From Candidatus Marinacidobacterium sp. (GTDB lineage Bacteria; Acidobacteriota; Vicinamibacteria; Marinacidobacterales; Marinacidobacteraceae), in contig CBDHFO010000017.1 in NCBI GenBank assembly GCA_965262645.1, forward strand, positions 2,616,582 to 2,680,581: a stretch of DNA of 64,000 nt. The letters run 5' to 3'. Under the pieces are notes generated by a model. The model was given only the letters and a program-made list of their open reading frames with translations, searched no databases and was not told the DNA's origin. Numbering within the stretch: the stretch's first letter is position 1; every line of letters starts with the position of its first letter. A program made the position numbers and the translations under genes. Positions 11,944-61,261 of the stretch are shown piece by piece.

Positions 11944-11952
11944 GGGTCGAAT

Positions 11953-34673: not shown

Positions 34674-36817
34674 TGGCTGGCCCGTCCGGGACCGAACTCG
34701 CGCTGTCTCCCGTAATTCGGGCGGCGGTCTGGCGGATCTTCAGCGCCGGCGCGGCGCCCGGGACCAGAGGATCGGCTTTCGAGAACATCGAGCCCGTGAT
34801 CCGGCTGCACGTACCGCGGGCAGACCAGAATCGTGCCATCGGGACCATCCGAAGCTGGTTCGACGCGGGGACGCACGCAAGATGGCTGAATCCGGATCGC
34901 GCGGCGTTGGCTGCGGAACTGGTGCTTGAGGGCGTCGGCCCACGGCGTTCCGAGGATGCGATCTGGGCGATCGCCTCCATCGGGCTCGATCTTTCGGCTG
35001 GCATGATTCGTCGGCGCTGGTCGTCGGGTGAGAGTGACTCGTTTGTCGCGGCAGCGATCGAAGCGCTGAACGGCCTGGTGGCCGACTCTCCGATTGGGGG
35101 TAACTCGGCTGGGGAAGGGGAAGAAGCGGACGACGGAGGCTTTCGAGAGGCCGCATTGCGTGACGGGATGGTGGGCGCGTTCGCGCGTCTTGAGAAACAG
35201 AGTCTCGAACTCGTGAACCAGGGGCTGCACCCCACGGTGGCCAACCTGATCGATCTGGCGGTTGATCTGTCTCCTGAAGGCTCCCCGTTGCTCATCGAAC
35301 GGCTGCAAGCGCCGACGATGCAAGCGAAGGCGGCCCGCCGAATGGTGGCGCGGACGTCTCCACGCGAGCTGCCCCGGATCGTCGAATGGATCACGAACCG
35401 CTCGGTTGAGGCCGCCGTGGCGCTGTCCATCGTGCACACCCTGAGCGCGGTCCGGAAGATGGACGAGGGCCGGTTGGCCGGGGCCATCCTGAAGTCGCCC
35501 AAATCCGTAAGGGACGACGACGTCACCAGGGAGAAGGAGCCCCCGGACGCCGCCGCAAGTTTGCTGGCCCAACTGTTGGGACGGTTGGGACGCCTCGATC
35601 CACCGGTTTGCCTGCGTTGGGTCGGCGAACTTTTGAGCCGGGCGTCGCAAGCACTGTCGGCATCCGGCGATGAAGGAAAACCGCGCCGACTTGTGGAACT
35701 GGAAGAAGGGTGTACAAGACTGGCGGCAGGCCTCTTCCAGGATTGCGCGTCCCCGGATCTGCTCTCTCAATTCCAGTTCGGTCTGCGTCCTGGCCGAAGG
35801 AAGCGGTGGGTCCGCCACCAAACGGGGATTGCCAAGGCGATGCGGGAGCTGAGTCCGAAGCGCGCGGCGGAGCTCGCGCAGGCCACCCTCGATGAACACC
35901 GGCGCCGGTTGGCGGAGCCGTGGGACGGCCACTACCTCGCCTTCGACTGGGGCGACTGGAACGACCGAGAGTGGCTTGAAGGGTTGGGAACAGCGCTCGC
36001 GCTGTCTGGCGAAGAACTCGATCTCCACGTGTGGGTAGCGAATGAGTGCCGAGACCTGCCGCTCAGTGTCTGGGATGCTGAGGAGGATCTCGACTCGTTT
36101 GCGATCTCGGAACAGATCGCCCAGCACTGGTTGCTGGTGGCGCTGCTCGCGATTCCGCGCCGCAGCGAGTTCGGCCAGCCAATCGAGCACTCCCAGGTCT
36201 GTGCCCTGGCCGAAGCCGTGTGGGCGCATTGCAGGTTTTGCCGGCAACACCTCGACAAACACCCGGAAGCATCTGTCGCTGCCGAACTGGCTGCCCGCTA
36301 TGCAATGCAGTTCGGCCAGGCAGACGATCAGTGGGTTCTTGACCAGGCCCGCCGTGAGGGCGTCGGCCCCAGGGCCCTCTGCGTGCTCGTAGAAGAGCGA
36401 CGAGTCCGCCGCCGGCAGCCGGGAGAGGGCAATCCCGGCTACGACGAGATGATCATGGCCGAGCTTGTGCGCATTGCTTCGAACCGGTTCGAGGATGGTG
36501 GCCAGTTCGATCTGGACACCCTGGGGTACTGGGGAAAGCTGTGGCTGTCCCTCGGCGCCGTGGATCAGGCGGAACGCACGGCGATGGCAATCGTCAGTTT
36601 CCCCTTGCGGGCGACGGATCGGAACTTCCGCATTCTGGCGCTGAAACTCCTCGGCCTGGTCGTGCGGACTCGCAAGCCGGCGCGCGGTGTCACGGAGTAC
36701 GTGGCCCCGCTCTACAACCAGCTCTGGCCCGTGTTCGGAAGAACCCCGGCCGAGGAGGAGGTAGGCCGCCAGGAGATCGAGCGGGCGTTCATCGGCTCGG
36801 AACTCATCGCTCTCTAG
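34673..36817 (+). CDS. uncharacterised 714-aa alpha-helical protein
   Basis: GTG overlaps the upstream stop (TAGTG at 34671-75). Long uninterrupted ORF with a helical-repeat-like composition. No Walker or nuclease motifs seen. Confidence 0.55.
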   Translation: MAGPSGTELALSPVIRAAVWRIFSAGAAPGTRGSAFENIEPVIRLHVPRADQNRAIGTIRSWFDAGTHARWLNPDRAALAAELVLEGVGPRRSEDAIWAIASIGLDLSAGMIRRRWSSGESDSFVAAAIEALNGLVADSPIGGNSAGEGEEADDGGFREAALRDGMVGAFARLEKQSLELVNQGLHPTVANLIDLAVDLSPEGSPLLIERLQAPTMQAKAARRMVARTSPRELPRIVEWITNRSVEAAVALSIVHTLSAVRKMDEGRLAGAILKSPKSVRDDDVTREKEPPDAAASLLAQLLGRLGRLDPPVCLRWVGELLSRASQALSASGDEGKPRRLVELEEGCTRLAAGLFQDCASPDLLSQFQFGLRPGRRKRWVRHQTGIAKAMRELSPKRAAELAQATLDEHRRRLAEPWDGHYLAFDWGDWNDREWLEGLGTALALSGEELDLHVWVANECRDLPLSVWDAEEDLDSFAISEQIAQHWLLVALLAIPRRSEFGQPIEHSQVCALAEAVWAHCRFCRQHLDKHPEASVAAELAARYAMQFGQADDQWVLDQARREGVGPRALCVLVEERRVRRRQPGEGNPGYDEMIMAELVRIASNRFEDGGQFDLDTLGYWGKLWLSLGAVDQAERTAMAIVSFPLRATDRNFRILALKLLGLVVRTRKPARGVTEYVAPLYNQLWPVFGRTPAEEEVGRQEIERAFIGSELIAL

Positions 36818-40452: not shown

Positions 40453-41249
40453 CAAGGAACCAAGGACCGCCAGGAGCGCAAGGAGCGCAAGGAGCGCCGG
40501 TCTTCAGACCGGCATCGCGGCCGCAGGCCGCGAAACTCCGGCTCTTATCGACCCCCATTACGTGGACCCAACCGGGGACGGCGCAACACCCTCCCGGGCC
40601 AACGCAAACAGTCAGGAGCGCCAGGAGCGCCAGGAGCGCCGGTCTTCAGACCGGCATCGCGGCCGCAGGCCGCGAAACTCCGGCTCTTATCGACCCCTAT
40701 TACGTGGACCCAACCGGGGACGGCGCGACACCCTCCCGCGCCAACGCAAACAGTCAGGAGCGCCAGGAGCGCCAGGAGCGCCGGTCTTCAGACCGGCATC
40801 GCGGCCGCAGGCCGCGAAACTCCGGCTCTTATCGACCCCCATTACGTGGACCCAACCGGGGACGGCGCGACACCCTCCCGGGCCAACGCAAACAGTCAGG
40901 AGCGCCAGGAGCGCCAGGAGCGCCGGTCTTCAGACCGGCATCGCGGCCGCAGGCCGCGAAACTCCGGCTCTTATCGACCCCCATTACGTGGACCCAACCG
41001 GGGACGGCGCGACACCCTCCCGGGCCAACGCAAACAGTCAGGAGCGCCAGGAGCGCCAGGAGCGCCGGTCTTCAGACCGGCATCGCGGCCGCAGGCCGCG
41101 AAACTCCGGCTCTTATCGACCCCCATTACGTGGACCCAACCGGGGACGGCGCGACACCCTCCCGGGCCAACGCAAACAGCCAGGAGCGCCAGGAGCGCCA
41201 GGAGCGCCGGTCTTCAGACCGGCATCGCGGCCGCAGGCCGCGAAACTCC
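40453..41249 (+). repeat. tandem array, 142-bp unit x about 5.6
   Basis: The core GGAGCGCCGG recurs at 40491, 40633, 40775, 40917, 41059 and 41201 (period exactly 142). Units are about 97-100% identical. Each unit is (CAGGAGCGC)x3, a double hairpin, then about 70 nt. Confidence 0.9.
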
Positions 41250-41505
41250 CACCACTAACCGCGAAGAAGCGCGGGGACGGCCAGGGAACGCCGACCTCTG
41301 GCCAGTTCTCCCGGTGGGGGCCGGCACGCGCTGCGCGCAGCGCAGCGAAATCGCGGTTCGCGTGACCCGCGTAACCCACAAACCGCCGGCCCGCATCGCC
41401 GCCACCGAGATTACACCTCAACCCCAACAGTGCCATACACTGCCGTGACGACATTACACCAACATTACATCGGAGATTACAGCCTCCGACGACCACATAA
41501 CCACC

Positions 41506-42255
41506 TTGATCCCGCGCGGCGCCAAAGGAGTTGTCCTCGGGACAATTCTCGCTTCCGCCGCGGTGGCCTCCGTCTCCTCGACGGCCCCGCAAGAGACCTG
41601 GCGGGGCCTCCGCGTAGCTCCCGAAGAGCGTTGCACCCGTTACGACTCGGACGACTACCGCTACTCGCAACGGGTCGAAGACGCCATCATCGCGGACCTC
41701 GGCGGGATCTACTCGCCCTATACGGGGGAGTGGTTTGACACGAAGCGGGAGACCGACATCGAGCACCTGGTGGCCCGTTCCGAGGCGCATGACAGCGGGC
41801 TGTGCGCCGCCAGCGCGGACACCAGGCGCCGGTTCGCCAATGACTCGCTGAATCTGACCCTCGCAAGTCCGGCGGTGAATCGGCACCAGAAGAACGACAA
41901 GGACGCGGCCGAGTGGCTGCCGGAAAGGAACCGGTGCTGGTTTGCGAGTCGTGTCGTCCAGGTACGACGGAAGTACGACCTCACGATCGACCGGCGAGAG
42001 GTCGGGGTCCTGGAAGGCCTGCTGTCGGGATGCCGTTCGGTAGCGATGGTCCCTCCTGGGTCGGGCCGCGCGCCAGCTAACCGATCGAACGCGGAACCGG
42101 ACGCGCGACGCCCATCTGATCACCAGACCGGATGCGGGCCTTTCGCCAACTGCACGGCGCTCCGTCGGGTGCACCCACGCGGGGTCCCACGAGGGCATTG
42201 CGCCTATGCCAGCAAGATGGACCGGGATCGAGACGGTTGGGCCTGCGAAAGATGA
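41506..42255 (+). CDS. secreted HNH/DUF1524-type nuclease with C-terminal excalibur domain
   Basis: TTG start and signal-like VVLGTILASAAVASVSS. DIEHLVARSEAHDSG...NLTLASPAVNRHQKNDKDAAEWLP (DUF1524 HNH). C-terminal CTALRRVHPRGVPRGHCAYASKMDRDRDGWACE (excalibur). Confidence 0.7.
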   Translation: MIPRGAKGVVLGTILASAAVASVSSTAPQETWRGLRVAPEERCTRYDSDDYRYSQRVEDAIIADLGGIYSPYTGEWFDTKRETDIEHLVARSEAHDSGLCAASADTRRRFANDSLNLTLASPAVNRHQKNDKDAAEWLPERNRCWFASRVVQVRRKYDLTIDRREVGVLEGLLSGCRSVAMVPPGSGRAPANRSNAEPDARRPSDHQTGCGPFANCTALRRVHPRGVPRGHCAYASKMDRDRDGWACER

Positions 42256-42607
42256 TGGCCCGTTCGTCCGGCAGATCCTTGCCGTCGTCGTTCCAGCTCC
42301 ACTGAAGACAGGCCCTTCCACTCGCAGCTCGCCTCGCGCCGTCCTTCGGAGCGTTGCCTCCTCCCGAGCCTCTAATTACTAGGAGTCCGCTCGTGAGCAG
42401 GGGAACGAGCTGGGCCCACGGCAGCGTCATCGGCGCGTGCGGAGCGGCGGACGACCGGCTTAGGACAATGGCGTAGGTGTAGGTTCTGCGTTCTGTTTCA
42501 CCATAGGGGGCTGAGAATTGCGGGCCCAATTTCTGCGTAGTTGCCTAGCCTTGTTGAGACGTGGCATTTCCCCGGTCTCTCGGTTTGCTTCAAAGCAAAC
42601 TCTCCCC

Positions 42608-42829
42608 ATGACTACCGTCTCCCGCAGCGATCTGGAGGCGTGCCTCTCCAAAGCCTGCGCCTACCATTCCGTGGCGGATTCGGGGGGACAGCCACTGAGG
42701 TTCCACACTTGGCCTGACTGCCCTGCCGGGAACCGCATCGGAAAGGCATACCTCCGGTGCGGGAAGGGGAAGCAGGGCGAGAGACGCGAGGAGTGCTCCT
42801 TTTGCCAAGGGCAGGGCACAAGAGTCTGA
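42608..42829 (+). CDS. possible small Cys-rich (zinc-ribbon-like) protein
   Basis: 73 aa; HTWPDCPAG...CSFCQGQG. Weak evidence based on the ORF only. Confidence 0.3.
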   Translation: MTTVSRSDLEACLSKACAYHSVADSGGQPLRFHTWPDCPAGNRIGKAYLRCGKGKQGERREECSFCQGQGTRV

Positions 42830-43000
42830 TTAGTTCGACTTACGTTGCCGCTCCCCTCGCCCTCTGACTCAATTCCGCGTGCGGGGTCGGTCTCGTCCGC
42901 AGGCACACGGACCGTTGCGGTTCCCTTCGCCTAGGCAGCGCGGTAGTCTGCTGGCTAGAGACCGGCAGCCAAGCACGCGAACACGACAAGGAGCGTTGAT

Positions 43001-43999
43001 GTGTCCGACCCACATTGGCAGTTGCATCCCAATGTGCATCCGTTGACGGTAAGCACGTTTCTCGACGCCATCATGGACCTTGGCCTCGCCGCGGAAGGCT
43101 TGCGGCACAAGAAGTCGCTCTTCGACACCGACGGGGGCTGGCGCGTGCTCCAGGCCGTTGTCCGCCAGATCTCAGTTCCCTTACGGAAGCTCTGCCTCGA
43201 CAAGGAAGGAGCCTTACTCAAGAAGGCCATCGCTAACCCGACCTTCCATCCCCTCGGCGGCCAAAAGGGTCGATACCGCCGCGCCACGCTGTTGTGGCGC
43301 TCAGAACCCCGAGAATGGGTCATGGGCTTCGCAGACGGGAAGGAGAAAACAGTCGTCGTCCCAGAAACCGAGCACGAAATTGAAATTGGCAGGTTGTACG
43401 GCGTCGACTTCCTTGAAGACGGGTGGTGCGCGATTCACCGCCCGTTCGATCTCGCGGCCCACCCAGTTCCGCTGGATGCTTGGCTAGACGCCAAGGCGCT
43501 GCAGGTCAACTCTGTCAGTTACACCATCAGAGACGCGCTAGGGCTCGTAGCCGACTACGAGGGCGCCCACGCCAACGAACTACACGCATGGATTGCGGTC
43601 GGCGTTAATCCCGAGGACATGGACAAGGGCAGGAAAATGAAATACCGCTTGGTCAACTCGGTGTACTTCGGATGCCTGTCGTACGTGCACGTAGTCGCTC
43701 TCTATACGGCGTTGTACCTCACGGGACAGGTGCGGGAGCTTCTTGCCAAATCTGCCAGCACGCTTGCCGGGGTGGATGCTTCCTCTGTCAACCGCTCAAT
43801 TCGGAACATCGGCACCGACCTAGTCCTGCGCGCACGCATTGTCAACGCCACCCAAGAGATGGTCGTTGTCGGAAAGTCGGATATCCCCGGAAACCGCCGG
43901 CGCCGCCCCGTTTACCGCCTCTGGTCAGGTTCGCCGCAGTGGGACGCCCCTGTTCCCGACCCGCCCCGCTCCGATCTGGCAGCAGGTCGTCCAGCATGA
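43001..43999 (+). CDS. hypothetical 332-aa protein (no recognisable family)
   Basis: GTG 7 nt after AAGGAG. Moderate-GC ORF in the accessory region. Confidence 0.5.
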   Translation: MSDPHWQLHPNVHPLTVSTFLDAIMDLGLAAEGLRHKKSLFDTDGGWRVLQAVVRQISVPLRKLCLDKEGALLKKAIANPTFHPLGGQKGRYRRATLLWRSEPREWVMGFADGKEKTVVVPETEHEIEIGRLYGVDFLEDGWCAIHRPFDLAAHPVPLDAWLDAKALQVNSVSYTIRDALGLVADYEGAHANELHAWIAVGVNPEDMDKGRKMKYRLVNSVYFGCLSYVHVVALYTALYLTGQVRELLAKSASTLAGVDASSVNRSIRNIGTDLVLRARIVNATQEMVVVGKSDIPGNRRRRPVYRLWSGSPQWDAPVPDPPRSDLAAGRPA

Positions 44000-44246: not shown

Positions 44247-44477
44247 CGGTCTGCTGATTCCTGGATCTCTTCGTGGGCGGCGTCGGGATGCGGCGGGGAC
44301 GCCGGCACCCGGTGGAGCTGAGGGCAGGGGACCCGCTGGACTTCTGGCGGGTGGAGGCGTGGGAGGAAGATCGCCTCCTGCGGCTCTCCGCGGAGATGAA
44401 GGTGCCCGGCCGGGCCTGGCTCCAGTTCAAGGTGGAGCCGGCGGAGGGCGGCAGCCGGATCACCCTAACGGCCGTTT
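44247..44477 (+). pseudogene. DUF2867-domain gene fragment F1
   Basis: LDLFVGGVGMRRGRRHPVELRAGDPLDFWRVEAWEEDRLLRLSAEMKVPGRAWLQFKVEPAEGGSRITLTAV. Homology stops abruptly at 44477. Confidence 0.6.
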
Positions 44478-44545
44478 GCACCCGCGCCAACACCTAATCG
44501 GTGTCAACAGCGTCCGTGCTCATCGTACTCCCTCTATCGGTCCGG

Positions 44546-45604
44546 TCACTTCCAGACCTGAGCTGATTCGGCACCATAGAACTGCAGGAACCGTGCGTCA
44601 CGGGCACTTCCAGCCCGGGCTAGTGCGGTAGCTCGTATCCGCAGGGTCGCGTTGCTTGAACTATCTGGATCTCCATGTAGGCCAACGTAGAGCCTTCGGA
44701 TATTTCCACTCTTTATTCTCGTGAGTACGTGGTCATCACTGTCATCGAAGCTATGTCCAAGAACAAACAATGTGTCCTGCTTCCTTCGCATGCGCCGAGT
44801 GAAATGGCGAAGGGAATTGTTCAAGTATGGACTCCTCTTGATACGCCGTAGTTTTTGGACGCTCGTCCCCTCGGCCACGAAAAGAGGGAACATATCTTTT
44901 CGGATCGCAGCCCTGATCTGGTCCATCAGCGGAAGTTTGCCTCCACTCCACTTGTACTTAACGAGTTCCGTACCGGTGTCTAGGAGGTGTAGGGCACCGT
45001 GTAAGTAGTGGATCCTCTGTTTGTTTGTTGTCGTGCTGCCGATCCAAACCAGGTGGTCGCTATTGGGTTCAGGAGACTTTCCGAATCCATCATTCGGCAC
45101 GAGTGAAACCGTGTTTGGCTTCGCCCGGTCCCACATTAGAGCCCAGTAGAGAAGAAGGTCATAGTTGAGCGTGTACACATGGCCCTTCTGATCTCCTCCG
45201 ATAAAGTTAGACAGAAAGTGTTTGCATCGCTGAAAGCGTTGGCCTCCTATTTCGTACGGGTCGGCCGGGTGATGTTGGACGATCGTCTTGATCAGAGTCT
45301 CTCGAATTTCGGAGGCATCTTGTCGGAGGCTCGACGGAATAGCGTGCGAGTGGTTGTACAGTGCGACAAGCCGAGCCGCCTCCTCCAAACTGCGAATACC
45401 GTGTTCGAAGTCCTTGGTGTCTATTGCGTTGAATACACGGTATATGCGCGACGAATCATCTGGAAAAGCCTTTTCGAATAGGGATCTGTATGTAAAGATG
45501 TTCTTGTTGCAGGCAATACTGAAGCCATTGCCGAGTAGGAGGTGCCGAGATCCGGACCCCTCTGAGTCAGCGAGTGCCTGGTCAAACGAAAATATCTGGG
45601 TCAC
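44546..45604 (-). CDS. DUF4917-like (SIR2-superfamily-like) protein
   Basis: 352 aa; N-terminal HLLLGNGFSIACN (the GxGxS motif of the SIR2_2/DUF4917 type). Markedly lower GC than its surroundings. Confidence 0.65.
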   Translation of the reverse strand: MTQIFSFDQALADSEGSGSRHLLLGNGFSIACNKNIFTYRSLFEKAFPDDSSRIYRVFNAIDTKDFEHGIRSLEEAARLVALYNHSHAIPSSLRQDASEIRETLIKTIVQHHPADPYEIGGQRFQRCKHFLSNFIGGDQKGHVYTLNYDLLLYWALMWDRAKPNTVSLVPNDGFGKSPEPNSDHLVWIGSTTTNKQRIHYLHGALHLLDTGTELVKYKWSGGKLPLMDQIRAAIRKDMFPLFVAEGTSVQKLRRIKRSPYLNNSLRHFTRRMRRKQDTLFVLGHSFDDSDDHVLTRIKSGNIRRLYVGLHGDPDSSSNATLRIRATALARAGSARDARFLQFYGAESAQVWK

Positions 45605-45872
45605 TTATAATTGACTTGGAGGGCGTCGGCGGTACTGGAGGTTTCAGATTTTGGGGCGGGTATCCAGCAGCCGCGAGGAGGTCAGCCGGAGAGCACGGGG
45701 AAGTGTTGGCGATGCGTACGTTCGGAGCACGCCGGCGCCGCTCAGGCGCGACCGAACTCGCCGGGCGTTCTGTAGAGTCAGAGGGCGCTTGAACGGGATC
45801 AGGCCTAAAATCACGCGGCCAAACCCGACGTAATTCTACAACGCATCCGTCACACGCGAAATCTTTCGGCCT

Positions 45873-45960
45873 GCGACTCGGGCAGCGGGCGCTCCTCTGC
45901 TGGTACGGGCTCTACCCGATCCACTGGCTGATCTTCCGGCGGATGCTGCGGAGAGTGGCG
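45873..45960 (+). pseudogene. DUF2867 fragment F2 (continuation of F1 after the 1.4-kb insertion)
   Basis: RLGQRALLCWYGLYPIHWLIFRRMLRR matches PLGLGGLLYWYGLYPIHWLIFRRML of the other copies. Confidence 0.6.
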
Positions 45961-45993
45961 GCGGCAGGACCCGCCCCGTGTAACAGTCCTGAC

Positions 45994-47847
45994 ATGCCCA
46001 GATCCGTCACGAACCCGCTCCCGTGCCTTCTCGCCGTAGCCTTGGTCGCCGCGGGCGCGGCCGGCGCCGGCCAGGAAACCCGGGAGCCCCGGATCGTGGT
46101 GGATCCCGACTACCTCGTCAGCCGGGATGGCGACCGGCCTCACGTCGAGATCATGGCGGCCGCGAACCCGCGCAATCCACGCAACCTGCTGGCCGGCGCC
46201 ATCACCTTCACCCGTCCCGACGGCGGGGCCGCCACCAAGGCCTACGTCAGCTTCGACGGCGGCGTTCAGTGGGACGACGTCACCTTCCCGGAGCAGAAGG
46301 AGACGGGTGGGGGCGATCCCCAGGTGGCGTTCACCGCGGCCGGCACGGCGATCTTCGCCACCCTCGCCACCCGGGCGGATGAGACCGGCCGCACGCGGGC
46401 GTTCCTTCACACCTACCGGTCCGAAGACGGAGGACGGACCTGGTCGGCTCCCTACGACCTCGGGGCCTCGTACGACCACCCCATGCTGGCGGCCGATCAG
46501 ACGACGGGGCGCTTTGCCGGACGGTTGTACATGAGTGTCCTCTACGGCCGCGAATACAGCCTCGGCGTCTTCCGCTCGGAAGACGACGGCAGAAGCTGGA
46601 TCGGCCCGGTGAAGTTCCTGGACGGCGCCGGCGAGCGAGGGCTCAACGTGGACCCCACGGTGGTGTTTCACGACGGGGCCGTCATGGTTCCCTTCGTGGA
46701 CTTCCCGTCCAACCCCGAACAGACCGCCAACTGGACCGAATCGCGACTCTGGACGGTCGTTTCGACCGACGGTGGGGTGACGTTCTCCGAGCCGAAGCCG
46801 GGCCCGGTGAAGATGACGGGCGAGGAGACGCGCCTGGCGAGGGAGGGGACACCGCGTTTTCGGGGCGGCTCCTGGACCATGCTCGCGGCGGACCGCAGCC
46901 AGCGTTTCCGGGATCGCGCCTACGCGGTCTGGCCCGACTACTCGGAGGGGCTTCCGCGCGTCGTGATTTCCTGGTCCGGCGACCGCGGTTCCACCTGGAG
47001 CGACCCCGGGCCAGTGGCGTCCCCGGGGGGTCCGGATGTCCAGCAGTTCCAGCCCGCGGTCGCCGTCAACCGGGACGGCGTGCTGGGGGTAAGTTGGTAC
47101 GACACCCGGCAGGCTCCGTCGCGGTTCGCCTTCCACGAGTACTTCGCGGCTTCCTTCGACGGCGGCGAGACGTTCACCTCACCGATCCAGGTTTCGGGAT
47201 CGCTCTCCGAGCCCCTGGGCTCCGGCCATCTGGTGCCCGCTCCGGTGACCTTCAGCGGAACCGAAGGAGAGCTGCGGGTCGCGCTGATCTCCGCGGCTTC
47301 GCGCTGGGTGAATGGTGGCGACTACCTGGGTCTTACCACGTCGTCCGACGGGCACTTCCACCCGGTCTGGGCCGACGCGCGGTCGGGCGCCTATCAGGTG
47401 TACACGGCGGCGGTACGGATCGTGGACGGACCGCCCGCGCCGCCGGCGACGGCCGGGGAACCGGTGGACATCACCGGGCGGATCGAACTCGTGAACGACC
47501 CCGGAAGCTATGACGCCGAGACCGGAGTGGCCGACCTCTGGATCCGGCTACGGAATGTGTCGGCCGCTCCCCTCGCGGGACCGATCGAGGTGGAGATCCG
47601 CAAGTTCGGGAGCGGCATGGGAGACATGTTTTCGGAACTCGCCCCGGAGGTCCTCAACGCAGATAACGGACGGCGCGGAAACGGCGCCGTCTTCCGCTAC
47701 GACGAAGTGCTCGGCAGCGATGGCGTCCTCCCTCCCGGCGGCGTCAGCGGCGCGGTCCTCTGGCGTCTCAAGCTCGCGGAGCCGGTCCGCATTCCCAATC
47801 TGCACCTCTACATCACCGGCCGCGAGGTGGTCGCGGAGCCGCGGTAG
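45994..47847 (+). CDS. secreted BNR/Asp-box six-bladed propeller (exo-alpha-sialidase-like), copy 1
   Basis: Signal CLLAVALVAAGAAGAG. Asp boxes SFDGGVQW, SEDGGRTWS, SEDDGRSW, STDGGVTFS, SGDRGSTWS, SFDGGETFT. Confidence 0.75.
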   Translation: MPRSVTNPLPCLLAVALVAAGAAGAGQETREPRIVVDPDYLVSRDGDRPHVEIMAAANPRNPRNLLAGAITFTRPDGGAATKAYVSFDGGVQWDDVTFPEQKETGGGDPQVAFTAAGTAIFATLATRADETGRTRAFLHTYRSEDGGRTWSAPYDLGASYDHPMLAADQTTGRFAGRLYMSVLYGREYSLGVFRSEDDGRSWIGPVKFLDGAGERGLNVDPTVVFHDGAVMVPFVDFPSNPEQTANWTESRLWTVVSTDGGVTFSEPKPGPVKMTGEETRLAREGTPRFRGGSWTMLAADRSQRFRDRAYAVWPDYSEGLPRVVISWSGDRGSTWSDPGPVASPGGPDVQQFQPAVAVNRDGVLGVSWYDTRQAPSRFAFHEYFAASFDGGETFTSPIQVSGSLSEPLGSGHLVPAPVTFSGTEGELRVALISAASRWVNGGDYLGLTTSSDGHFHPVWADARSGAYQVYTAAVRIVDGPPAPPATAGEPVDITGRIELVNDPGSYDAETGVADLWIRLRNVSAAPLAGPIEVEIRKFGSGMGDMFSELAPEVLNADNGRRGNGAVFRYDEVLGSDGVLPPGGVSGAVLWRLKLAEPVRIPNLHLYITGREVVAEPR

Positions 47848-47879
47848 CTCGCGCGGATCGGCGGTCGGCTCACGCACCG

Positions 47880-48131
47880 AGCGCGATCCAGTGGTGGGTC
47901 GAGGCGCTCGTGAAGGACCGACTACTCCGGTTGCAGGCGGTGACGCAGGTCCCAGGACGAGCCTGGCTCCAGTTCAAAGTGAAGCCGACGGAGGGCGGCA
48001 GCCAGATCACCCAGACGGCCGTTTTTGATCCGCTCGGACTGGAAGGGCTCCTCTACTGGTACGGGCTTTATCGGATCCACTGGCTGATCTTTCGGCGGAT
48101 GCTGCGCGTAGTGGCAGCGCGGAGGTGTTGA
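47880..48131 (+). pseudogene. DUF2867 fragment F3 (divergent)
   Basis: KDRLLRLQAVTQVPGRAWLQFKVKPTEGGSQITQTAVFDPLGLEGLLYWYGLYRIHWLIFRRMLRVVAARRC*. Confidence 0.6.
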
Positions 48132-54008: not shown

Positions 54009-55361
54009 TCACGCCTCAAATCGATAGCCCTTGCCCAGCACGACTTCATCCCAGTTCGGGAGCGCTCCCTCCCTCACCATGTGCAGTATTGCCCCCCGGC
54101 AGAACTCCTGGGCTCTACCGACCGTGCCGGCATCCTCCTCTCGGTTTTTTCTCTTTAGGCCCCTGCCATGCAGGACACTGGATGCCAGTCCATACCCCTT
54201 CCGGAGGGTATCGAAACAGGCTTTGCGCTCGTCATAAGTCTCCCCGAGAAGCCATGCCCCTCTTGTAGCGATACGAAACTGAATTTCAGACGAGTTTCCG
54301 GAGTCGCCGGCCAGCAGCACCGATTCCAGAGCTATTCGCAGTTCCACAAGCTGTTCCTCAAGCGGTCTGCCCCGTTTCGATCTCCTCCACCTGGCTATCG
54401 CGACATCGAGCGCCGAGAACCTCCTTAGCCGTCCCTCAATTTCCAAGCTTCGCGTGAGTTGCTCGTCTGAGATCGACCGTGGCGACCCGCTGCTCGTCTC
54501 CTGCAACGACGCCCCATGGCCTGGGTTAAGGAAGAATGCGTCGATGTCCCCGTAGTTCGACCAACCTCGAAACCAATCCACGTTGTTGTCGATTTCGAGC
54601 GACATCGCCCGGCAGAGACCTGCGACGGACACCTGCGACAGTTCCGGATTCCTGATTCGGGGCCGCGGAACATCTTCGGAAAACTTCTTCTTTTCCGCAT
54701 CGGGGCAATAAAGCGCCGGTCCGACCTCGGTTTCGAGCGACAGCATCGCCCGCCGGCCATACTGCTCGTACTTGATGTCACCAGCATCCAGTTGGACATA
54801 AAGGGATCTCGGAAACTCCTCGCCGTTGCCCGACAGTGTTTCCAGAACGAGCCCGTTCCTGGGCGATATCCGTCCGTCGTTGAGCACCCCCTTGAGCAGG
54901 AAGCATTGCCAGACCGGGATGGGCTGCCCTTGGACCCAGCCGCAAAATGTTGCCGCGGTCCGTTCCGGCCCGATTCGGGCCGATGCCAGTACGAGTATCC
55001 GGGCATAGTCTTCGACCGAGGGCAGCCGAGGAGAAGCCGACGCTCCCGTCAGCCTGTAGAGACCGTTGCCGACTGCGCCCGTGTCGGACGCCCGATAGGG
55101 CGCAAGCATCGGAGCGATCGCCGAAACGAGACCGGCGAGCTCGCCTTCGGGCACGGCGACCGAATTGGCGCCGTTAAGCCGGTAGTCATGATGACGCTTC
55201 CCGGAATAGAGTTCGTGCATCTCACTCGCACCGAAACTCCGTCTCCAGACATTGCGGAACTGCGTCCGGCGGAGGGCCCATTGGATACATTGCTCCAGGC
55301 GTTCACGCTCCACGACGTTCGTCTCCTTGCGCCATGCCGGCGTCTCGCGCGGGAACGTCAT
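54009..55361 (-). CDS. Apea-like HEPN-domain protein (ApeA-like)
   Basis: The C-terminal 130 aa, LRIALESVLL...EIQFRIATRGAWLLG...LRKGYGLASSVLHG, fit the HEPN helix pattern. However, the RSxxxH position reads ASSVLH. Confidence 0.55.
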   Translation of the reverse strand: MTFPRETPAWRKETNVVERERLEQCIQWALRRTQFRNVWRRSFGASEMHELYSGKRHHDYRLNGANSVAVPEGELAGLVSAIAPMLAPYRASDTGAVGNGLYRLTGASASPRLPSVEDYARILVLASARIGPERTAATFCGWVQGQPIPVWQCFLLKGVLNDGRISPRNGLVLETLSGNGEEFPRSLYVQLDAGDIKYEQYGRRAMLSLETEVGPALYCPDAEKKKFSEDVPRPRIRNPELSQVSVAGLCRAMSLEIDNNVDWFRGWSNYGDIDAFFLNPGHGASLQETSSGSPRSISDEQLTRSLEIEGRLRRFSALDVAIARWRRSKRGRPLEEQLVELRIALESVLLAGDSGNSSEIQFRIATRGAWLLGETYDERKACFDTLRKGYGLASSVLHGRGLKRKNREEDAGTVGRAQEFCRGAILHMVREGALPNWDEVVLGKGYRFEA

Positions 55362-55480
55362 CGCGACGAGCCGAAACCGGCTTCCCGAATACTATAAATG
55401 CCATGCTATGTAGGCGCCCTGCACCTGTCCGCCGCACCATCCCGGTCAGCGTGTCCTCCACACCGCGCGTACCCACACTC

Positions 55481-55891: not shown

Positions 55892-55977
55892 CCCAAGGCG
55901 GCCGTGGTCCGTGGTGATGTCCTGATCTCGGATCCCTCAAGTCCGCGCTTCAGGGTGTCCCTCAGGTTGCCATGCCG

Positions 55978-57603: not shown

Positions 57604-57820
57604 GGTGATCGGGGCTATATGGGTGAGGTGGGGCCGCACGGTATTTTGGCGTAGGGAGCGGACCGGGGGAGTTGTGGGCGCTATGGCTGGAGTGAGTGGC
57701 GGATGCCGGGCCGTCGGGTGGTGGACCGGTATCCCGTGCTGAGGGGCGAAGAGCCACTAACGGGACCAAAGGCGGCCTGTCGGGTTGCTTCAAAGTCACC
57801 TTGTCGCGTTCGACATGGGT

Positions 57821-57884
57821 CGGCATCGCGATTTCGCCCGCCGACGGCGGGCGATGCCGACCTGGAGGTCGGCGGTCCCTTGCC
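57821..57884 (-). repeat. double-hairpin REP-like module, subfamily 2 (reverse orientation)
   Basis: The reverse complement reads GGCAAGGGACCGCCGACCTCCAGGTCGGCATC-GCCCGCCGTCGGCGGGC-GAAATCGCGATGCCG. Confidence 0.5.
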
Positions 57885-57924
57885 TTCCGTCCGCCGACCT
57901 CAGGCCACGATCAGTGGACGGAAG

Positions 57925-58040
57925 GCCTTCGGCCCGTGCTCGCTCCACGTACTCCGCCGTGTTGTAGAGGTGGGGCGAGAGGCGGAATCCCCCGGAGCTT
58001 GAGCCCGCGATGCCGTGATGGTCGTTCATCCGGGAAAAGA
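57925..58040 (-). pseudogene. C-terminal remnant of a class V aminotransferase-like gene
   Basis: GIAGSSSGGFRLSPHLYNTAEYVERA resembles the RxSxHxYNTxEE tail of this fold (compare the gene at 10065-11276). Confidence 0.35.
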
Positions 58041-58042
58041 CT

Positions 58043-58237
58043 TCGCGGCTCTCGGGGAAGATGAAGGTGCCCGGCCGCGCCTGGCTCCAGTTCGAGGGTG
58101 AGCCGGCGGGGGACGGCCGCCGGATCACCCAGGCGGCGGTCTTCGACCCCCTCGGGTTGGGAGGGCTCCTCTACTGATATGGGCTCTACCCGATCCACTG
58201 GCTGATCTTCCGGCGGATGCTGCGGGATGTGGCCGCA
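58043..58237 (+). pseudogene. DUF2867 fragment F4 (uninterrupted reference for the F1/F2 junction, contains an in-frame stop)
   Basis: EMKVPGRAWLQFEGEPAGDGRRITQAAVFDPLGLGGLLY*YGLYPIHWLIFRRMLRD. Confidence 0.6.
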
Positions 58238-60127
58238 GGACCCGTCCCGTGTAACAGTCCGGAAATGCCCAGCTCCGTCCCGAACCCGCTCCCGTGCCTT
58301 CTCGCCGTAGCCCTGGTCGCCGCGGGCGCGGCCGGCGCCGGCGCCGGCCAGGAAACCCGGGAGCCCCGGATCGTGGTGGATCCCGACTACCTCGTCAGCC
58401 GGGATGGCGACCGGCCTCACGTCGAGATCATGGCGGCCGCGAACCCGCGCAATCCACGCAACCTGCTGGCCGGCGCCATCACCTTCACCCGTCCCGACGG
58501 CGGGGCCGCCACCAAGGCCTACGTCAGCTTCGACGGCGGCGTTCAGTGGGACGACGTCACCTTCCCGGAGCAGAAGGAGACGGGTGGGGGCGATCCCCAG
58601 GTGGCGTTCACCGCGGCCGGCACGGCGATCTTCGCCACCCTCGCCACCCGGGCGGATGAGACCGGCCGCACGCGGGCGTTCCTTCACACCTACCGGTCCG
58701 AAGACGGAGGACGGACCTGGTCGGCTCCCTACGACCTCGGGGCCTCGTACGACCACCCCATGCTGGCGGCCGATCAGACGACGGGGCGCTTTGCCGGACG
58801 GTTGTACATGAGTGTCCTCTACGGCCGCGAATACAGCCTCGGCGTCTTCCGCTCGGAAGACGACGGCAGAAGCTGGATCGGCCCGGTGAAGTTCCTGGAC
58901 GGCGCCGGTGAGCGAGGGCTCAACGTGGACCCCACGGTGGTGTTTCACGACGGGGCCGTCATGGTTCCCTTCGTGGATTTCCCGTCCACCCCCGAACAGA
59001 CCGCCAACTGGACCGAATCGCGACTCTGGACGGTGGTTTCGACCGACGGTGGAGTGACGTTCTCCGAGCCGAAGCCGGGCCCGGTGAAGATGACGGGCGA
59101 GGAGACGCGCCTGGCGAGGGAGGGGACACCGCGTTTTCGGGGCGGCTCCTGGACCATGCTCGCGGCGGACCGCAGCGAGCGTTTCCGGGATCGCGCCTAC
59201 GCGGTCTGGCCCGACTACTCGAAGGGGCTTCCGCGCATCGTGATTTCCTGGTCCGGCGACCGCGGTTCCACCTGGAGCGACCCCGGGCCAGTGGCGTCCC
59301 CGGGGGGTCCGGATGTCCAGCAGTTCCAGCCCGCGGTCGCCGTCAACCGGGACGGCGTGCTGGGGGTAAGTTGGTACGACACGCGGCAGGCTCCGTCGCG
59401 GTTCGCCTTCCACCAGTACTTCGCGGCTTCCTTCGACGGCGGCGAGACGTTCACCTCACCAATCCAGGTTTCGGGAGCGCTCTCCGAGCCCTTGGGGTCC
59501 GGCAATCTGGTGCCCACCCCGGTGACCTTCAGCGGAACGGAAGGAGAACTGCGGGTCGCACTGATCTCCGCGGCTTCGCGCTGGGTGAATGGTGGCGACT
59601 ACATGGGTCTTACCACGTCGTCCGACGGGCACTTCCACCCGGTCTGGGCCGACGCGCGGTCGGGCGCCTATCAGGTGTACACGGCGGCGGTACGGATCGT
59701 GGACGGACCGCCCGCGCCGCCGGCGACGGCCGGGGAACCGGTGGACATCACCGGGCGGATCGAACTCGTGAACGACCCCGGAAGCTATGACGCCGAGACC
59801 GGGGTGGCCGACCTCTGGATCCGGCTACGGAATGTGTCGGCCACTCCCGTCGCGGGACCGATCGAGGTGGAGATCCGTAAGTTCGGGAGCGGCATGGGAG
59901 ACATGTTTTCGGAACTCGCCCCGGAGGTCCTCAACGCAGATAACGGACGGCGCGGAAACGGCGCCGTCTTCCGCTACGACGAAGTGCTCGGCAGCGATGG
60001 CGTCCTCCCTCCCGGCGGCGTCAGCGGCGCGGTCCTCTGGCGTCTCAAGCTCGCGGAGCCGGTCCGCATTCCCAATCTGCACCTCTACATCACCGGCCGC
60101 GAGGTGGTCGCGGAGGCGCGGTAGCGT
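58144..60127 (+). repeat. about 2-kb direct repeat, copy B
   Basis: See copy A (45873-47850). Identity ends right after the stop codon in both copies. Confidence 0.9.
58265..60124 (+). CDS. secreted BNR/Asp-box propeller (exo-alpha-sialidase-like), copy 2
   Basis: About 98% identical to copy 1 at the protein level, with the same Asp boxes. Confidence 0.75.
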   Translation: MPSSVPNPLPCLLAVALVAAGAAGAGAGQETREPRIVVDPDYLVSRDGDRPHVEIMAAANPRNPRNLLAGAITFTRPDGGAATKAYVSFDGGVQWDDVTFPEQKETGGGDPQVAFTAAGTAIFATLATRADETGRTRAFLHTYRSEDGGRTWSAPYDLGASYDHPMLAADQTTGRFAGRLYMSVLYGREYSLGVFRSEDDGRSWIGPVKFLDGAGERGLNVDPTVVFHDGAVMVPFVDFPSTPEQTANWTESRLWTVVSTDGGVTFSEPKPGPVKMTGEETRLAREGTPRFRGGSWTMLAADRSERFRDRAYAVWPDYSKGLPRIVISWSGDRGSTWSDPGPVASPGGPDVQQFQPAVAVNRDGVLGVSWYDTRQAPSRFAFHQYFAASFDGGETFTSPIQVSGALSEPLGSGNLVPTPVTFSGTEGELRVALISAASRWVNGGDYMGLTTSSDGHFHPVWADARSGAYQVYTAAVRIVDGPPAPPATAGEPVDITGRIELVNDPGSYDAETGVADLWIRLRNVSATPVAGPIEVEIRKFGSGMGDMFSELAPEVLNADNGRRGNGAVFRYDEVLGSDGVLPPGGVSGAVLWRLKLAEPVRIPNLHLYITGREVVAEAR

Positions 60128-60719: not shown

Positions 60720-60811
60720 GTCCTACCGGCGTGGAGTCCACCGCTCCCAGCTCTCAGGACTGACCCGACCCTCTCGGCCTCCATCAATGGTATTGCACAA
60801 AACAGATCCTG

Positions 60812-61261
60812 GTGCAGGCTGAACCCGCCCGTGCTTTCGCGCCCGTTCAGCGGATCGGGGGACGGCAGGGTTGGTATTTCGCCACCTGGCTCTGGTACCT
60901 ACGGGGCTTCCTCGATCTTCTCGTGGGCGGGGTCGGGACGCAGCGGGGGCGCCGGCACCCGGTGGAGCTGAGGGCAGGGGACCCACCCGACTGCTGGCGG
61001 GTGAAGGCGCGGGAGGGAAATCGCCTCTTGCGGCTCTGCGGGGAGATGAAGGCCCGGCCGGGCGTGGCTCCAGTTCGAGGTGGAGCCGGCGGAGGGCGGC
61101 AGCCGGATCCCCAGACCGCCGTTTTCGATCCGCTCGGGTTGGGAAGACTCCTCTACTGGTACGGGCTCTACCCGGTCCACTGGCTGATCTTCCGGCGGAT
61201 GCTGCGGGGACTAGCTGCGCGTCCGGAGGGTCGGAAGACTACGGCGCCGGTTGAGCGATGA
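60812..61261 (+). pseudogene. DUF2867 fragment F5 with compensating frameshifts
   Basis: Covers FAPVQRIGGRQGWYFATWLWYLRGFLDLLVGGVG...FDPLGLGRLLYWYGLYPVHWLIFRRML. Relative to F1 it lacks 2 nt at GAAGG^CCCGG and 1 nt near GGATCCCCAG, so about 25 codons are read out of frame. Confidence 0.55.

What the first reader, a model, noticed from the sequence alone, without database searches (positions are those of the whole stretch)
44478..45872. Clean 1.4-kb single-gene insertion carrying a SIR2-like (DUF4917) gene, with an empty-site paralog in the same window
Seen in sequence: DUF2867 fragment F1 stops at ...ACGGCCGTTT (44477), and fragment F2 resumes at GCGACTCGGG (45873). The paralogous fragment F4 (58120-58160) and F3/F5 read straight through (…GCCGTTTT(C/T)GA(C/T)CC…CTCGG…). 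The 1.4 kb is therefore an insertion with essentially no loss of target sequence. It is visibly lower in GC and encodes only the 352-aa DUF4917-like protein on the opposite strand, with no transposase or integrase. A weak duplication is possible (CGGCCGTTT on the left, CGGCCTG on the right). SIR2-like NADases are established defence effectors, but a solitary DUF4917 gene moving as a minimal cassette is not something I can assign to a known mechanism.
Basis: partly seen in the sequence, partly recalled or inferred. Interest (0 to 1): 0.6.

Follow-up and report, generated by a model that had tools for sequence, protein, structure and literature searches.

The report
Lone SIR2-like gene in defence island
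A foreign, single SIR2-like (DUF4917) candidate anti-phage gene does split a dead gene fragment, but a sister strain shows the "clean insertion" look came from an old messy joint plus a later 148-base deletion, so it is ordinary defence-island cargo and not a new kind of mobile cassette.

Summary
A segment at about 44480-45872 has about 52% GC against about 68% around it. It carries one intact 352-aa DUF4917 / PADLOC PDC-S21 gene (SIR2 fold) and lies between the two halves of a DUF2867 3' fragment ("F"). F3, F4 and F5 read straight through that point.

The "clean, self-moving minimal cassette" reading is only partly supported.
- **Native locus.** In related Acidobacteriota the locus is DUF2867(497 aa) -> BNR -> <- aminotransferase, so the gene is an insertion relative to that state.
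- **Sister strain.** A 1.27-Mb sister-strain contig has, at the orthologous site, a complete F copy, a ~70-nt spacer, the cassette, and then the same right joint.
- **Deletion.** The window lacks exactly 148 nt there (CCGTTTGC|GATCCGC...GGAAATC|ACCCGC). This is a microhomology deletion, and both forms occur in independent public metagenomes.
- **No mobility signs.** There are no terminal repeats, no target duplication and no recombinase. The cassette was found in no other context.

The whole 17-kb region is a fast-changing defence island (PDC-S21, IetAS, DUF6119; PDC-S31 and SIR2+HATPase in the sister strain). It is built on amplified, variably truncated F fragments. Most likely cargo is added by homology-anchored illegitimate recombination and the joints then erode. 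This is a new member of a known kind, of modest interest.

The parts
44258..44479 (+). F1_L: left half of a 5'-truncated DUF2867 3' fragment (about aa 387-461 of the 496-aa native protein). It ends at the 148-nt deletion joint (44478/79|44480).
   Evidence: Pfam DUF2867 E 1.2e-13. 84% identical to native L003 10175-10402. Sister-strain alignment shows the copy continuing as GATCCGCTC....
44480..44545 (-). Non-coding tail downstream of the DUF4917 stop codon; the left end of the foreign segment.
   Evidence: Shared at 95-100% with L083/L086 and L084, and over most of its length at 89% with L001. No match elsewhere. No terminator-like site.
44546..45604 (-). Intact 352-aa DUF4917 / PDC-S21 gene with a SIR2-like fold.
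   Evidence: Pfam PF16263 E 1.6e-62, full length. PADLOC PDC-S21 E 6.5e-107. AlphaFold2 pLDDT 88, and Foldseek top hits are the SIR2 subunit of SIR2-HerA, E 5.6e-10. Family-invariant G25-N26-G27, N147-Y148-D149 and H202-G203 are present. dN/dS is 0.28-0.57 among four intact alleles.
45605..45872 (-). 268-nt upstream non-coding region of the cassette (GC about 63%), presumably holding its promoter. Its right end is the old illegitimate joint to F2_R.
   Evidence: 96-100% conserved in L001, L083/L086 and L084, and unique otherwise. No sigma-70 consensus and no Rfam match at gathering score.
45873..45962 (+). F2_R: right half of F. Secure homology runs from 45877 (CTCGGG) and continues into BNR_A.
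   Evidence: 86-88% identical to the native right half in L003/L004. The cassette|F2_R joint is identical in L001, L083/L086 and runs X5-X7.
45943..47847 (+). BNR_A: a 634-aa BNR/sialidase-like gene, the native downstream neighbour of DUF2867.
   Evidence: Pfam BNR_2. 85% identical to the L003 BNR, which follows the intact DUF2867 gene there.
58045..60124 (+). F4 + BNR_B: a paralogous, uninterrupted copy (the 'empty site').
47892..48118 (+). F3: another 5'-truncated F copy, lying between BNR_A and IetAS.
60803..61221 (+). F5: the longest F copy in the window (aa 351-495 of the native protein).
   Evidence: Pfam DUF2867 E 1.1e-19; tblastn.
57861..58047 (-). G: 3' fragment of the aminotransferase (Aminotran_5) gene that natively converges on DUF2867/BNR. 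Here it is fused by its truncated 5' end to the truncated 5' end of F4.
   Evidence: Matches L002 Aminotran_5: blastn 79% over 57861-58047 and tblastn aa 368-406, 82%, over 57931-58047. L003 12437-12635 also matches. A longer version of the same joint is in L086 (Aminotran aa 230-417 | F aa 293-).

Best explanation
The segment at about 44480-45872 is horizontally acquired cargo. It is one intact, stand-alone SIR2-fold gene of the DUF4917 / PADLOC PDC-S21 family, an untested single-gene phage-defence candidate. It most likely acts by consuming NAD+ or by NAD-dependent modification when the cell is infected (inferred).

It is not a self-mobile cassette. It sits in a 17-kb or larger, fast-changing defence island. 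That island grew at the 3' end of a now-destroyed NAD-binding/DUF2867 gene, which in relatives is followed by a BNR gene and a convergent aminotransferase gene.

The apparent clean split of one DUF2867 fragment has two separate causes.
1. **An older event** placed [diverged distal DUF2867 end R_a + ~70-nt spacer + DUF4917 + 268-nt upstream region] next to a complete F copy, and joined its far end illegitimately to the F/BNR block near the F core. This duplicated the right half of F. The best fit is one-sided, homology-anchored illegitimate recombination of DNA from a donor in which DUF4917 already lay just downstream of DUF2867, as it does in L002 (inferred).
2. **A younger event**, in the window's lineage, was a 148-nt microhomology deletion that removed the rest of the left F copy and the spacer. 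It left F1_L abutting the cassette.

The other F fragments, with their different 5' truncation points, and the aminotransferase|F fusion are scars of the same add-then-erode process.

**Shown:** gene family and fold; the native locus; both structural states and their joints; the absence of mobility features.
**Inferred:** the recombination mechanism, the direction of change, and the defence function.
For: **Gene identity**
- Family and fold.

**Native and variant loci**
- The native single-copy locus is DUF2867(497 aa)-BNR-Aminotran_5 in L003, and DUF2867-Aminotran_5 in L004. Both are syntenic with window 28.7-37.7 kb.
- The 59%-identical DUF4917 in L002 lies between a complete F copy and Aminotran_5.

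**The 148-nt difference**
- The sister strain L083/L086 has, at the orthologous site, complete F + spacer + cassette + the identical right joint. The window, L084 and runs X1 and X5-X8 lack 148 nt. The joint reads CCGTTTGC|GATCCGC...GGAAATC|ACCCGC -> CCGTTTGC|ACCCGC.
- The long form is seen independently in L001 and in runs X12 and X16.
- The 148 nt continue F in register. That fits a deletion, not an insertion.
- Window-L086 identity is even along the cassette (95-97.5%), so there is no sign of a recombination patch.

**Different histories for the two right halves**
- R_a is only 61-72% identical to any other right half, whereas F2_R is 86-88% identical to the native one.

**Against a fixed recombination site or transposition**
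- The 5' ends of F copies lie at different positions: about -330, -220, -133, -98, -22 and +9 relative to the core.
- No TIR, TSD, integrase or RNA family was found.

**Island turnover**
- Slots differ between sister strains. PDC-S31 replaces GmrSD/Excalibur + orf332. SIR2+HATPase replaces HEPN/DUF6119. A 288-aa gene sits in the F/BNR_B slot, which is empty in the window.

**Distribution**
- F amplification was found only in this clade among the loci searched.
- No DUF2867 fragment lies beside DUF4917 in 117 other DUF4917 loci.
Against: - The left deletion endpoint in F (core position 0) and the start of F2_R (about +9) lie within about 10 nt of each other. Under two independent events that is roughly a 1-in-20 coincidence.
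- Two more breakpoints in the sister strain's copy B (-22 and +17) also fall near this core. A recombinogenic site is therefore not excluded.
- The four cassette alleles cannot be rooted, because L002 is too distant. The direction long form -> short form rests on the content of the 148 nt, not on a tree.
- L001 may be a chimeric assembly or a real recombinant of two F copies.
- No donor with a closely related cassette in a native F-DUF4917-aminotransferase context was found.
- The defence function of PDC-S21 is untested. The one studied DUF4917 protein, C. jejuni SliP, is described as a secreted sirtuin-type deacetylase (PMC10421069).
Confidence: 0.62

Rival explanations
1. A 1.4-kb one-gene fragment was inserted in a single step into an intact F copy at the core, for example by end-joining at a break. 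That gave the window's form directly. The longer form in the sister strain arose later, by homologous exchange with a donor that carried F-spacer-DUF4917.
For: - F1_L and F2_R are complementary to within 6-8 nt. Both are 84-85% identical to the continuous L003 sequence.
- The short form is the commoner one in public runs: X1 and X5-X8 against X12 and X16.
Against: - It needs an unobserved donor with a near-identical cassette in a different context, plus a double crossover.
- Window-L086 identity shows no step along the cassette.
- The long form occurs in two divergent cassette alleles, L086 and L001.
- The deletion joint has the overlap and imperfect repeat typical of slippage or microhomology deletion.
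Confidence: 0.1
2. The roles are reversed. DUF4917 is the older resident of the DUF2867/aminotransferase hotspot, as in L002. The F2_R-BNR_A(-F3...) block was later added or duplicated beside it. R_a is then simply the resident, decayed end of the original gene.
For: - L002 has F - DUF4917' - Aminotran_5 with no BNR.
- BNR is absent from L004.
- [F-BNR] is present twice in the window and the two copies are partly homogenised.
- The aminotransferase|F4 fusion shows that blocks starting inside F have been added.
Against: - F_a_L is 84% identical to L003 but R_a only 61-66%, so the left copy is itself a mosaic.
- L003, the closest syntenic relative that was fetched, has F-BNR and no DUF4917.
- The low GC of the gene (52%) marks it as the foreign part.
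Confidence: 0.12
3. The F core (GCCGTTTTCGATCCGCTCGG) is a recombination site for a recombinase encoded elsewhere in the genome. Single-gene cargo would be inserted and excised there, as in an integron-like cassette array built on pseudogene fragments.
For: - Four breakpoints fall within about 40 nt of the core: the F2_R start, the 148-nt deletion endpoint, and the edge and internal deletion of the copy-B remnant in L086.
- Every cargo block is bounded by F copies.
- A weak GCG(G)AAATC repeat lies near both cassette ends in the long form.
Against: - Most F copies start at other, scattered positions.
- There is no conserved repeat or inverted repeat at the cassette ends and no significant similarity between the ends and F.
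- The core has no unusual hairpin potential.
- No integrase is present in window 41-64 kb, where the larger open frames had Pfam matches only to defence-type genes and two transposases or had none, nor among the genes called in L002 and L086.
- The cluster of breakpoints was noticed after the fact.
Confidence: 0.08
4. The configuration is an assembly artefact caused by the repeated F copies.
For: F copies are 77-92% identical repeats that break short-read assemblies. L001 ends inside one, and it looks like a hybrid of two copies.
Against: Both joints are spanned by single contigs with 0-3 differences in five runs from five studies (X1, X5-X8) and by an independent ENA assembly. The long form lies within a 1.27-Mb contig.
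Confidence: 0.02

Closest known systems
PADLOC PDC-S21 / Pfam DUF4917 (PF16263): single-gene 'phage defence candidate' from the guilt-by-embedding screen (Payne et al., bioRxiv 10.1101/2024.01.29.577857)
   Same: Full-length HMM matches (E 6.5e-107 and 1.6e-62). It is a solitary gene with no partner. It has low GC and lies in a defence-rich, strain-variable region.
   Different: Here it lies between halves of a pseudogene fragment, not inside a defence operon. It is only 44-48% identical to the bulk of the family. The family's anti-phage activity is untested (PDCs are the 145 untested candidates).
SIR2 effectors of known defence systems: the SIR2 subunit of SIR2-HerA (Nezha), ThsA of Thoeris, and DSR2
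   Same: SIR2/Rossmann fold. Foldseek E is 5.6e-10 (TM 0.55) to SIR2 of SIR2-HerA, and ThsA and DSR2 also match. The GxG, NYD and HG motifs are conserved.
   Different: - There is no HerA, SLOG or other sensor or partner domain or gene.
- Identity is 11-15%, and PDB sequence search finds no relative.
- NADase activity is inferred, not shown.
C. jejuni SliP, the only studied DUF4917 protein (PMC10421069)
   Same: Same Pfam family.
   Different: SliP is described as a secreted sirtuin-type deacetylase that acts on host histones. The context here (a sponge-associated acidobacterial defence island) points to defence, but this alternative chemistry cannot be excluded.
Homology-facilitated illegitimate recombination (one-sided homology anchor plus a microhomology joint; described for naturally transformable bacteria, from my own knowledge), together with microhomology or slippage deletion
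   Same: The long form shows a homologous stretch (F) on one side, a non-homologous joint on the other, and duplication of part of the anchor. The 148-nt deletion lies between CGATCCGC and CACCCGC with a 1-nt overlap.
   Different: The process itself was not observed, and no donor was identified.
Defence islands or hotspots between conserved genes; tandem accretion of islands at the 3' end of a target gene
   Same: Variable defence cargo lies between the same flanking genes in relatives: BNR only, nothing, DUF4917, or many systems. Copies of the target gene's 3' end are repeated between cargo blocks.
   Different: There is no integrase, and the repeated fragments start at different positions. 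The target gene has lost its first ~350 codons within the window.
Integron gene cassettes
   Same: Promoter-less-looking single-gene units arranged in an array separated by repeated sequences.
   Different: There is no attC-like imperfect palindrome after the gene and no IntI/attI. The repeats are pseudogene fragments of variable length, and the cargo blocks range from 1 to 10 kb.

Membership tests
Pfam DUF4917 (PF16263) | Whole-protein HMM score above the gathering cut-off, covering the whole model | tested here: met
   212.2 bits against a cut-off of 28; residues 22-351 match model positions 1-311 of 311.
PADLOC PDC-S21 | Match to the PDC-S21 HMM | tested here: met
   PDLC04960 E 6.5e-107, residues 3-352 on model 3-335/336.
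PADLOC PDC-S21 | Single-gene system with no obligatory partner gene | tested here: met
   The only neighbours are DUF2867 pseudogene fragments. The same gene is flanked the same way in L083/L086 and L084, and by different genes in L002.
PADLOC PDC-S21 | Protects against phage | not testable with these tools
   PDCs are untested candidates by definition.
SIR2 superfamily (NAD-dependent) | SIR2/Rossmann fold | tested here: met
   The model has pLDDT 88.2 and pTM 0.89. 37 PDB matches have E <= 1e-3, nearly all SIR2 or sirtuin chains (a few HerA-complex entries). The best is 8su9_D, E 5.6e-10. Pfam SIR2_2 scores 24.0 bits, just under its 24.5 cut-off.
SIR2 superfamily (NAD-dependent) | Catalytic Asn and His and the glycine-rich NAD loop are present | tested here: inconclusive
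   G25-N26-G27, N147-Y148-D149 and H202-G203 are invariant in 45 family members and present here. Their equivalence to the catalytic N/H of ThsA or DSR2 rests on motif resemblance, not on a residue-level superposition.
Transposable element (IS / MITE / transposon-borne passenger) | Terminal inverted repeats and a target-site duplication | tested here: not met
   No terminal IR or flanking DR better than chance. 6-8 nt of the target are missing rather than duplicated.
Transposable element (IS / MITE / transposon-borne passenger) | The same unit occurs at several unrelated sites | tested here: not met
   It was found only at this locus in this species group. Nothing above 47% aa identity appears in plasmids, phages, IMG/VR or JGI metagenomes.
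Integron cassette | attC-type imperfect palindrome downstream of the gene, with an IntI/attI platform | tested here: not met
   Only a 5-bp stem lies in the 66-nt tail. No integrase is present in 41-64 kb.
Integrase-driven island at a gene's 3' end | Site-specific recombinase gene, and att repeats that begin at one fixed crossover point | tested here: not met
   No tyrosine or serine recombinase is present in window 41-64 kb (larger open frames), nor among the genes called in L002 and L086. F copies start at about -330, -220, -133, -98, -22 and +9 relative to the core.
Defence island / hotspot cargo | Same flanking genes in relatives, with variable, defence-enriched content that differs between strains | tested here: met
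   L003 has DUF2867-BNR-Aminotran_5 and L004 has DUF2867-Aminotran_5. L002 has DUF4917', a two-gene module and DUF4143. The window has PDC-S21, IetAS and DUF6119. L086 has PDC-S31, PDC-S21, IetAS and SIR2+HATPase.

The most novel reading that the evidence does not exclude
The amplified 3' fragments of the dead DUF2867 gene may act as portable docking sites. Any incoming DNA that carries a piece of F could be captured beside an existing F copy by the cell's general recombination, with no dedicated recombinase. The result would be an array of single-gene and multi-gene defence cargo separated by pseudogene fragments, functionally like an integron but driven by homology, with a breakage-prone spot around GCCGTTTTCGATCCG. 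The DUF4917 unit, the 288-aa gene in the sister strain's copy-B slot and the PDC-S31 / GmrSD alternatives would all be cargo of that array.
Probability: 0.2. Interest if true: 0.55.

Novelty: new member of a known kind. Interest (0 to 1): 0.3.

Why it matters
- **A caution on "clean" insertions.** Two unrelated rearrangements, an old illegitimate joint and a later 148-nt deletion, can together mimic the footprint of a precise one-gene insertion. Only a sister strain that keeps the intermediate form exposes this.
- **Another DUF4917 example.** It adds a divergent, intact and apparently selected member of DUF4917 / PDC-S21 to the list of places where this untested SIR2-like gene turns up alone in defence contexts. 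That supports testing the family as a sensor-less single-gene NAD-targeting defence.
- **Island turnover.** It documents a sponge-associated acidobacterial defence island whose slots differ between strains that are about 95% identical. The island is scaffolded by amplified fragments of one housekeeping gene.
- **If the docking-site reading were true,** it would be a recombinase-free route to building cassette arrays.

Tried and rejected
- **Hidden extension of F or a long target duplication at the cassette ends.** Local alignments of both ends against all F halves scored no better than shuffles. MAFFT's suggestive placement of TCACACGCGAAATCTTTCGGCC under the F core is not significant.
- **Terminal inverted or direct repeats, promoter, terminator, RNA family.** Nothing beyond chance.
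- **The 97% duplication starting exactly at the joint as a sign of site-specific exchange.** Rejected. The first ~200 nt are only 84-90% identical. The near-identity (96-100%) begins at about 46077 inside BNR, consistent with gene conversion.
- **A hairpin at the F core as a cause of breakage.** z-scores range from -1.6 to +1.7, which is unremarkable.
- **F as a cross-phylum mobile element.** Hits in Gemmatimonadota, Planctomycetota and others were full-length genes of about 490-690 codons, that is, the ordinary gene.
- **A common left boundary of F copies at aa 396.** L002 Fx and Fy share a boundary because they are duplicates of each other. L086 F_a and the window's F1 differ.
- **The cassette elsewhere.**
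  - No exact-protein record.
  - No match in plasmids or phages.
  - 47% identity or less in IMG/VR and JGI metagenomes.
  - An exact DNA pattern of the cassette's left end was not found in JGI metagenomes.
- **L001 as independent evidence for a second (copy-B) cassette.** Set aside. It is 98.9% identical to L086 copy B up to ...GGTACGGGCT and then follows copy A's R_a/spacer/cassette at 93%. It is therefore either a recombinant or a chimeric assembly.
Full report
**1. The observation**

The window holds five 3' fragments of a DUF2867 gene (called F here):
- F1 at 44258-44479
- F2 at 45873/77-45962
- F3 at 47892-48118
- F4 at 58045-58236
- F5 at 60803-61221

 F3, F4 and F5 read through ...GCCGTTTTCGATCCGCTCGGG.... 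F1 stops at ...GCCGTTTG(C), and F2 resumes at (GA)CTCGGG.

Between F1 and F2 lie about 1.39 kb with GC 0.51-0.53, against 0.66-0.72 outside. The only long ORF that any family search recognises there is 44546-45604 on the minus strand, 352 aa. It matches Pfam DUF4917 over the whole model (E 1.6e-62) and PADLOC PDC-S21 (E 6.5e-107).

The cassette ends show no similarity to F beyond chance. They carry no terminal inverted or direct repeats, no Rfam family at gathering score and no consensus promoter or terminator. It is also not an assembly artefact: contigs spanning both joints, with 0-3 differences, occur in runs X1 and X5-X8 and in the ENA contig L084.

**2. The gene**

- An AlphaFold2 model built from 45 family members has pLDDT 88 and pTM 0.89.
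- Foldseek against the PDB gives the SIR2 subunit of the SIR2-HerA (Nezha) anti-phage complex as top hits (E 5.6e-10, TM 0.55). Classical sirtuins, ThsA and DSR2 follow.
- PDB sequence search finds nothing.
- The family-invariant G25-N26-G27, N147-Y148-D149 and H202-G203 are present.
- Four alleles from different samples are all intact, with dN/dS 0.28-0.57.
- PDC systems are the 145 untested candidates from the guilt-by-embedding screen (10.1101/2024.01.29.577857).
- The only studied DUF4917 protein is C. jejuni SliP, described as a sirtuin-type deacetylase (PMC10421069).

**3. The native locus**

A scan of one genome per species with an F profile returned two syntenic Acidobacteriota relatives.
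- **L003** shares window 28.9-37.7 kb at 72-81% identity. It then has an intact 497-codon NAD-binding/DUF2867 gene, a BNR gene and a convergent Aminotran_5 gene.
- **L004** has DUF2867 followed directly by Aminotran_5.

L003 positions 10175-12339 are collinear with F1_L (84.2%) and with F2_R+BNR_A (84.9%). Relative to the native state, the DUF4917 segment does interrupt one continuous sequence.

None of the window's F copies reaches upstream of codon 351 of the native gene. Window 57861-58047 is a 3' piece of Aminotran_5, fused by its truncated 5' end to the truncated 5' end of F4.

**4. The sister strain**

The nearest DUF4917 relatives number only five:
- a 90% cluster of four sequences, P0002 and P0125-P0127;
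- one 59% homologue, P0003.

The rest of the family is 48% identical or less.

P0126 lies on a 1.27-Mb contig (L083/L086). This contig is collinear with window 32.7-52.3 kb at 92-97% identity. Its gene order is:

ABC/FecCD - PDC-S31(DUF2971) - F_a - DUF4917 - BNR - F3 - IetA - IetS - IS256 - HATPase_c_3 - SIR2_2 - Aminotran_5 fragment - F - 288-aa gene - BNR

At the orthologous joint, L083/L086 reads ...CCGTTTGC GATCCGCTCTGAC...(R_a)...(spacer)...GGAAATC ACCCGCGCC.... The window and L084 read ...CCGTTTGC ACCCGCGCC.... The window therefore lacks exactly 148 nt. Those nucleotides continue F in register: the rest of the core, then a decayed right half R_a with a 10-nt internal deletion, then a ~70-nt spacer.

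The two ends share a C and an imperfect CGATCCGC/CACCCGC repeat. The right joint (cassette|F2_R) is identical in all copies.

The long form is also present in L001, in a 1857-nt contig of run X12 that has 148 extra nt at 44479, and as a loose end in run X16 that reads into the spacer. Identity between the window and L086 is even along the cassette (95-97.5%), so there is no recombination patch.

The simplest history is long form -> short form by a microhomology deletion. The alternative needs an unseen donor and a double crossover.

**5. How the long form arose**

R_a is 61-72% identical to every other right half, while F2_R is 86-88% identical to the native right halves of L003 and L004. F_a_L is 84% identical to L003. 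The left F copy is therefore a mosaic: native-like up to about ...GGTACGGGCT, then much more diverged.

In L002, a more distant relative carrying the 59% homologue, DUF4917 sits convergently about 150 nt after a complete F copy, with Aminotran_5 on its other side.

My inference is as follows. DNA from a donor with that arrangement recombined homologously within F on one side. On the other side it was joined illegitimately to the recipient near the F core, which duplicated the proximal right half. A Campbell-type integration of a small circle carrying the right half of F would give the same product. I cannot separate the two.

**6. The wider pattern**

F copies start at about -330 (F5), -220 (F1), -133 (F3), -98 (F4), -22 (a remnant in L086 copy B) and +9 (F2) relative to the core. 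This argues against a fixed crossover site.

Slots differ between strains that are about 95% identical:
- PDC-S31 in L086, against GmrSD/Excalibur + orf332 in the window, to the left of F1.
- HATPase_c_3 + SIR2_2 in L086, against the HEPN-like gene, methylase relic and DUF6119 in the window, after IS256.
- A 288-aa unknown gene plus a REP-like element in the F/BNR_B slot of L086, which is empty in the window.

The aminotransferase|F fusion is longer on both sides in L086 than in the window. This is another case of erosion by deletion.

Multiple F copies occur only in this clade among the 86 loci in which an F copy was found. None of 117 other DUF4917 loci (37 viral, 80 metagenomic) has a DUF2867 fragment nearby. 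The association is thus a lineage-specific hotspot, not a target preference of the gene family.

**7. What remains odd**

The deletion endpoint (core position 0), the F2_R start (+9) and two breakpoints of the L086 copy-B remnant (-22, +17) cluster within about 40 nt. I noticed the cluster after the fact. The core has no special hairpin potential, and no recombinase was found. Even so, a recombinogenic site is not excluded, and I give it 8%.

L001 is 98.9% identical to L086 copy B up to the proximal right half, and then follows copy A's R_a/spacer/cassette at 93%. It is either a chimeric assembly or the joint of a recombination between two F copies.

**8. Limits**

- Function is inferred from family, fold and context only.

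**9. Verdict**

- It is a new member of a known kind, a DUF4917/PDC-S21 candidate carried as cargo in a defence-island hotspot.
- Interest is about 0.3. The docking-site reading of the F fragments is the most novel possibility not excluded (about 0.2).

Noticed in passing
window 57861-58047 / 58045-58236; L086 17747-18310 / 18304-18897: The truncated 5' end of an Aminotran_5 3' fragment is fused to the truncated 5' end of a DUF2867 3' fragment. The two genes converge in the native locus, so this is the joint expected from a tandem duplication or a circularised [F...cargo...aminotransferase] block. The sister strain keeps about 775 nt more across the joint, so the window's version is a deletion derivative.
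   Followed up: partly
L086 18940-20072 (sister strain), equivalent to window 58223-58228: The F/BNR_B slot that is empty in the window holds a low-GC 288-aa gene on the opposite strand in the sister strain, with no Pfam or PADLOC match. A REP-like element follows, then a ~35-nt F-core remnant (CACCCTGTCCTGCCGTTTTGATCCCGGTTGCGGG). This is a second single-gene insertion beside an F copy.
   Followed up: partly
window 41113-43999 versus L086 3517-4464: The slot to the left of F1 differs between strains. The window has a GmrSD_C/Excalibur-type nuclease gene (annotated on L084, the ENA contig collinear with this part of the window at 97%; the window's own ORFs had no Pfam match) plus an unassigned 332-aa ORF. 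The sister strain has a DUF2971 / PADLOC PDC-S31 gene (E 1.2e-42).
   Followed up: partly
window 54009-57639 versus L086 14565-17602 (= L001 2752-5789): After the shared IS256-type element, the window carries the HEPN-like gene, methylase relic and DUF6119 set. The sister strain carries an overlapping HATPase_c_3 (562 aa) + SIR2_2 (450 aa) pair. Only the SIR2 gene of that pair matches PADLOC models.
   Followed up: no
window 45877-47848 versus 58151-60125: The two F+BNR copies are 84-90% identical over the first ~200 nt and then 96-100% from about 46077 to the stop codon, with one dip to 91% at 47177-47276. This pattern suggests gene conversion within the BNR genes rather than a recent whole-unit duplication.
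   Followed up: partly
L001 (ENA ERZ28669063 ctg37802) 1506-1742: The contig switches, inside an F copy, from 98.9% identity with sister-strain copy B to 93% identity with copy A (R_a, spacer, cassette). It is either a chimeric assembly or a real F x F recombination joint, from an excised circle or a tandem duplication of about 14 kb.
   Followed up: partly
L002 11580-11867 and 16213-16503: In a more distant relative, two F copies share the same non-F left boundary (CAATCGGCGTC.CGCCG.CAGA.GGG). They bracket a homologue of the two-gene module found at window 32973-36809. The N-terminal part of the DUF2867 gene is split there by an IS.
   Followed up: no
L087-L123 (IMG/VR contigs): 37 viral or proviral contigs encode DUF4917 relatives (25-47% identity), so the family also travels on phage-like elements in other lineages.
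   Followed up: no
window 44298-44470 and 45894-46900 in runs X5-X7, X8, X11, X12, X16: Summed contig depth over the F and BNR sequences is 10-100 times that over the cassette (2-14). Many related, more abundant organisms in these samples carry F/BNR without this cassette.
   Followed up: no
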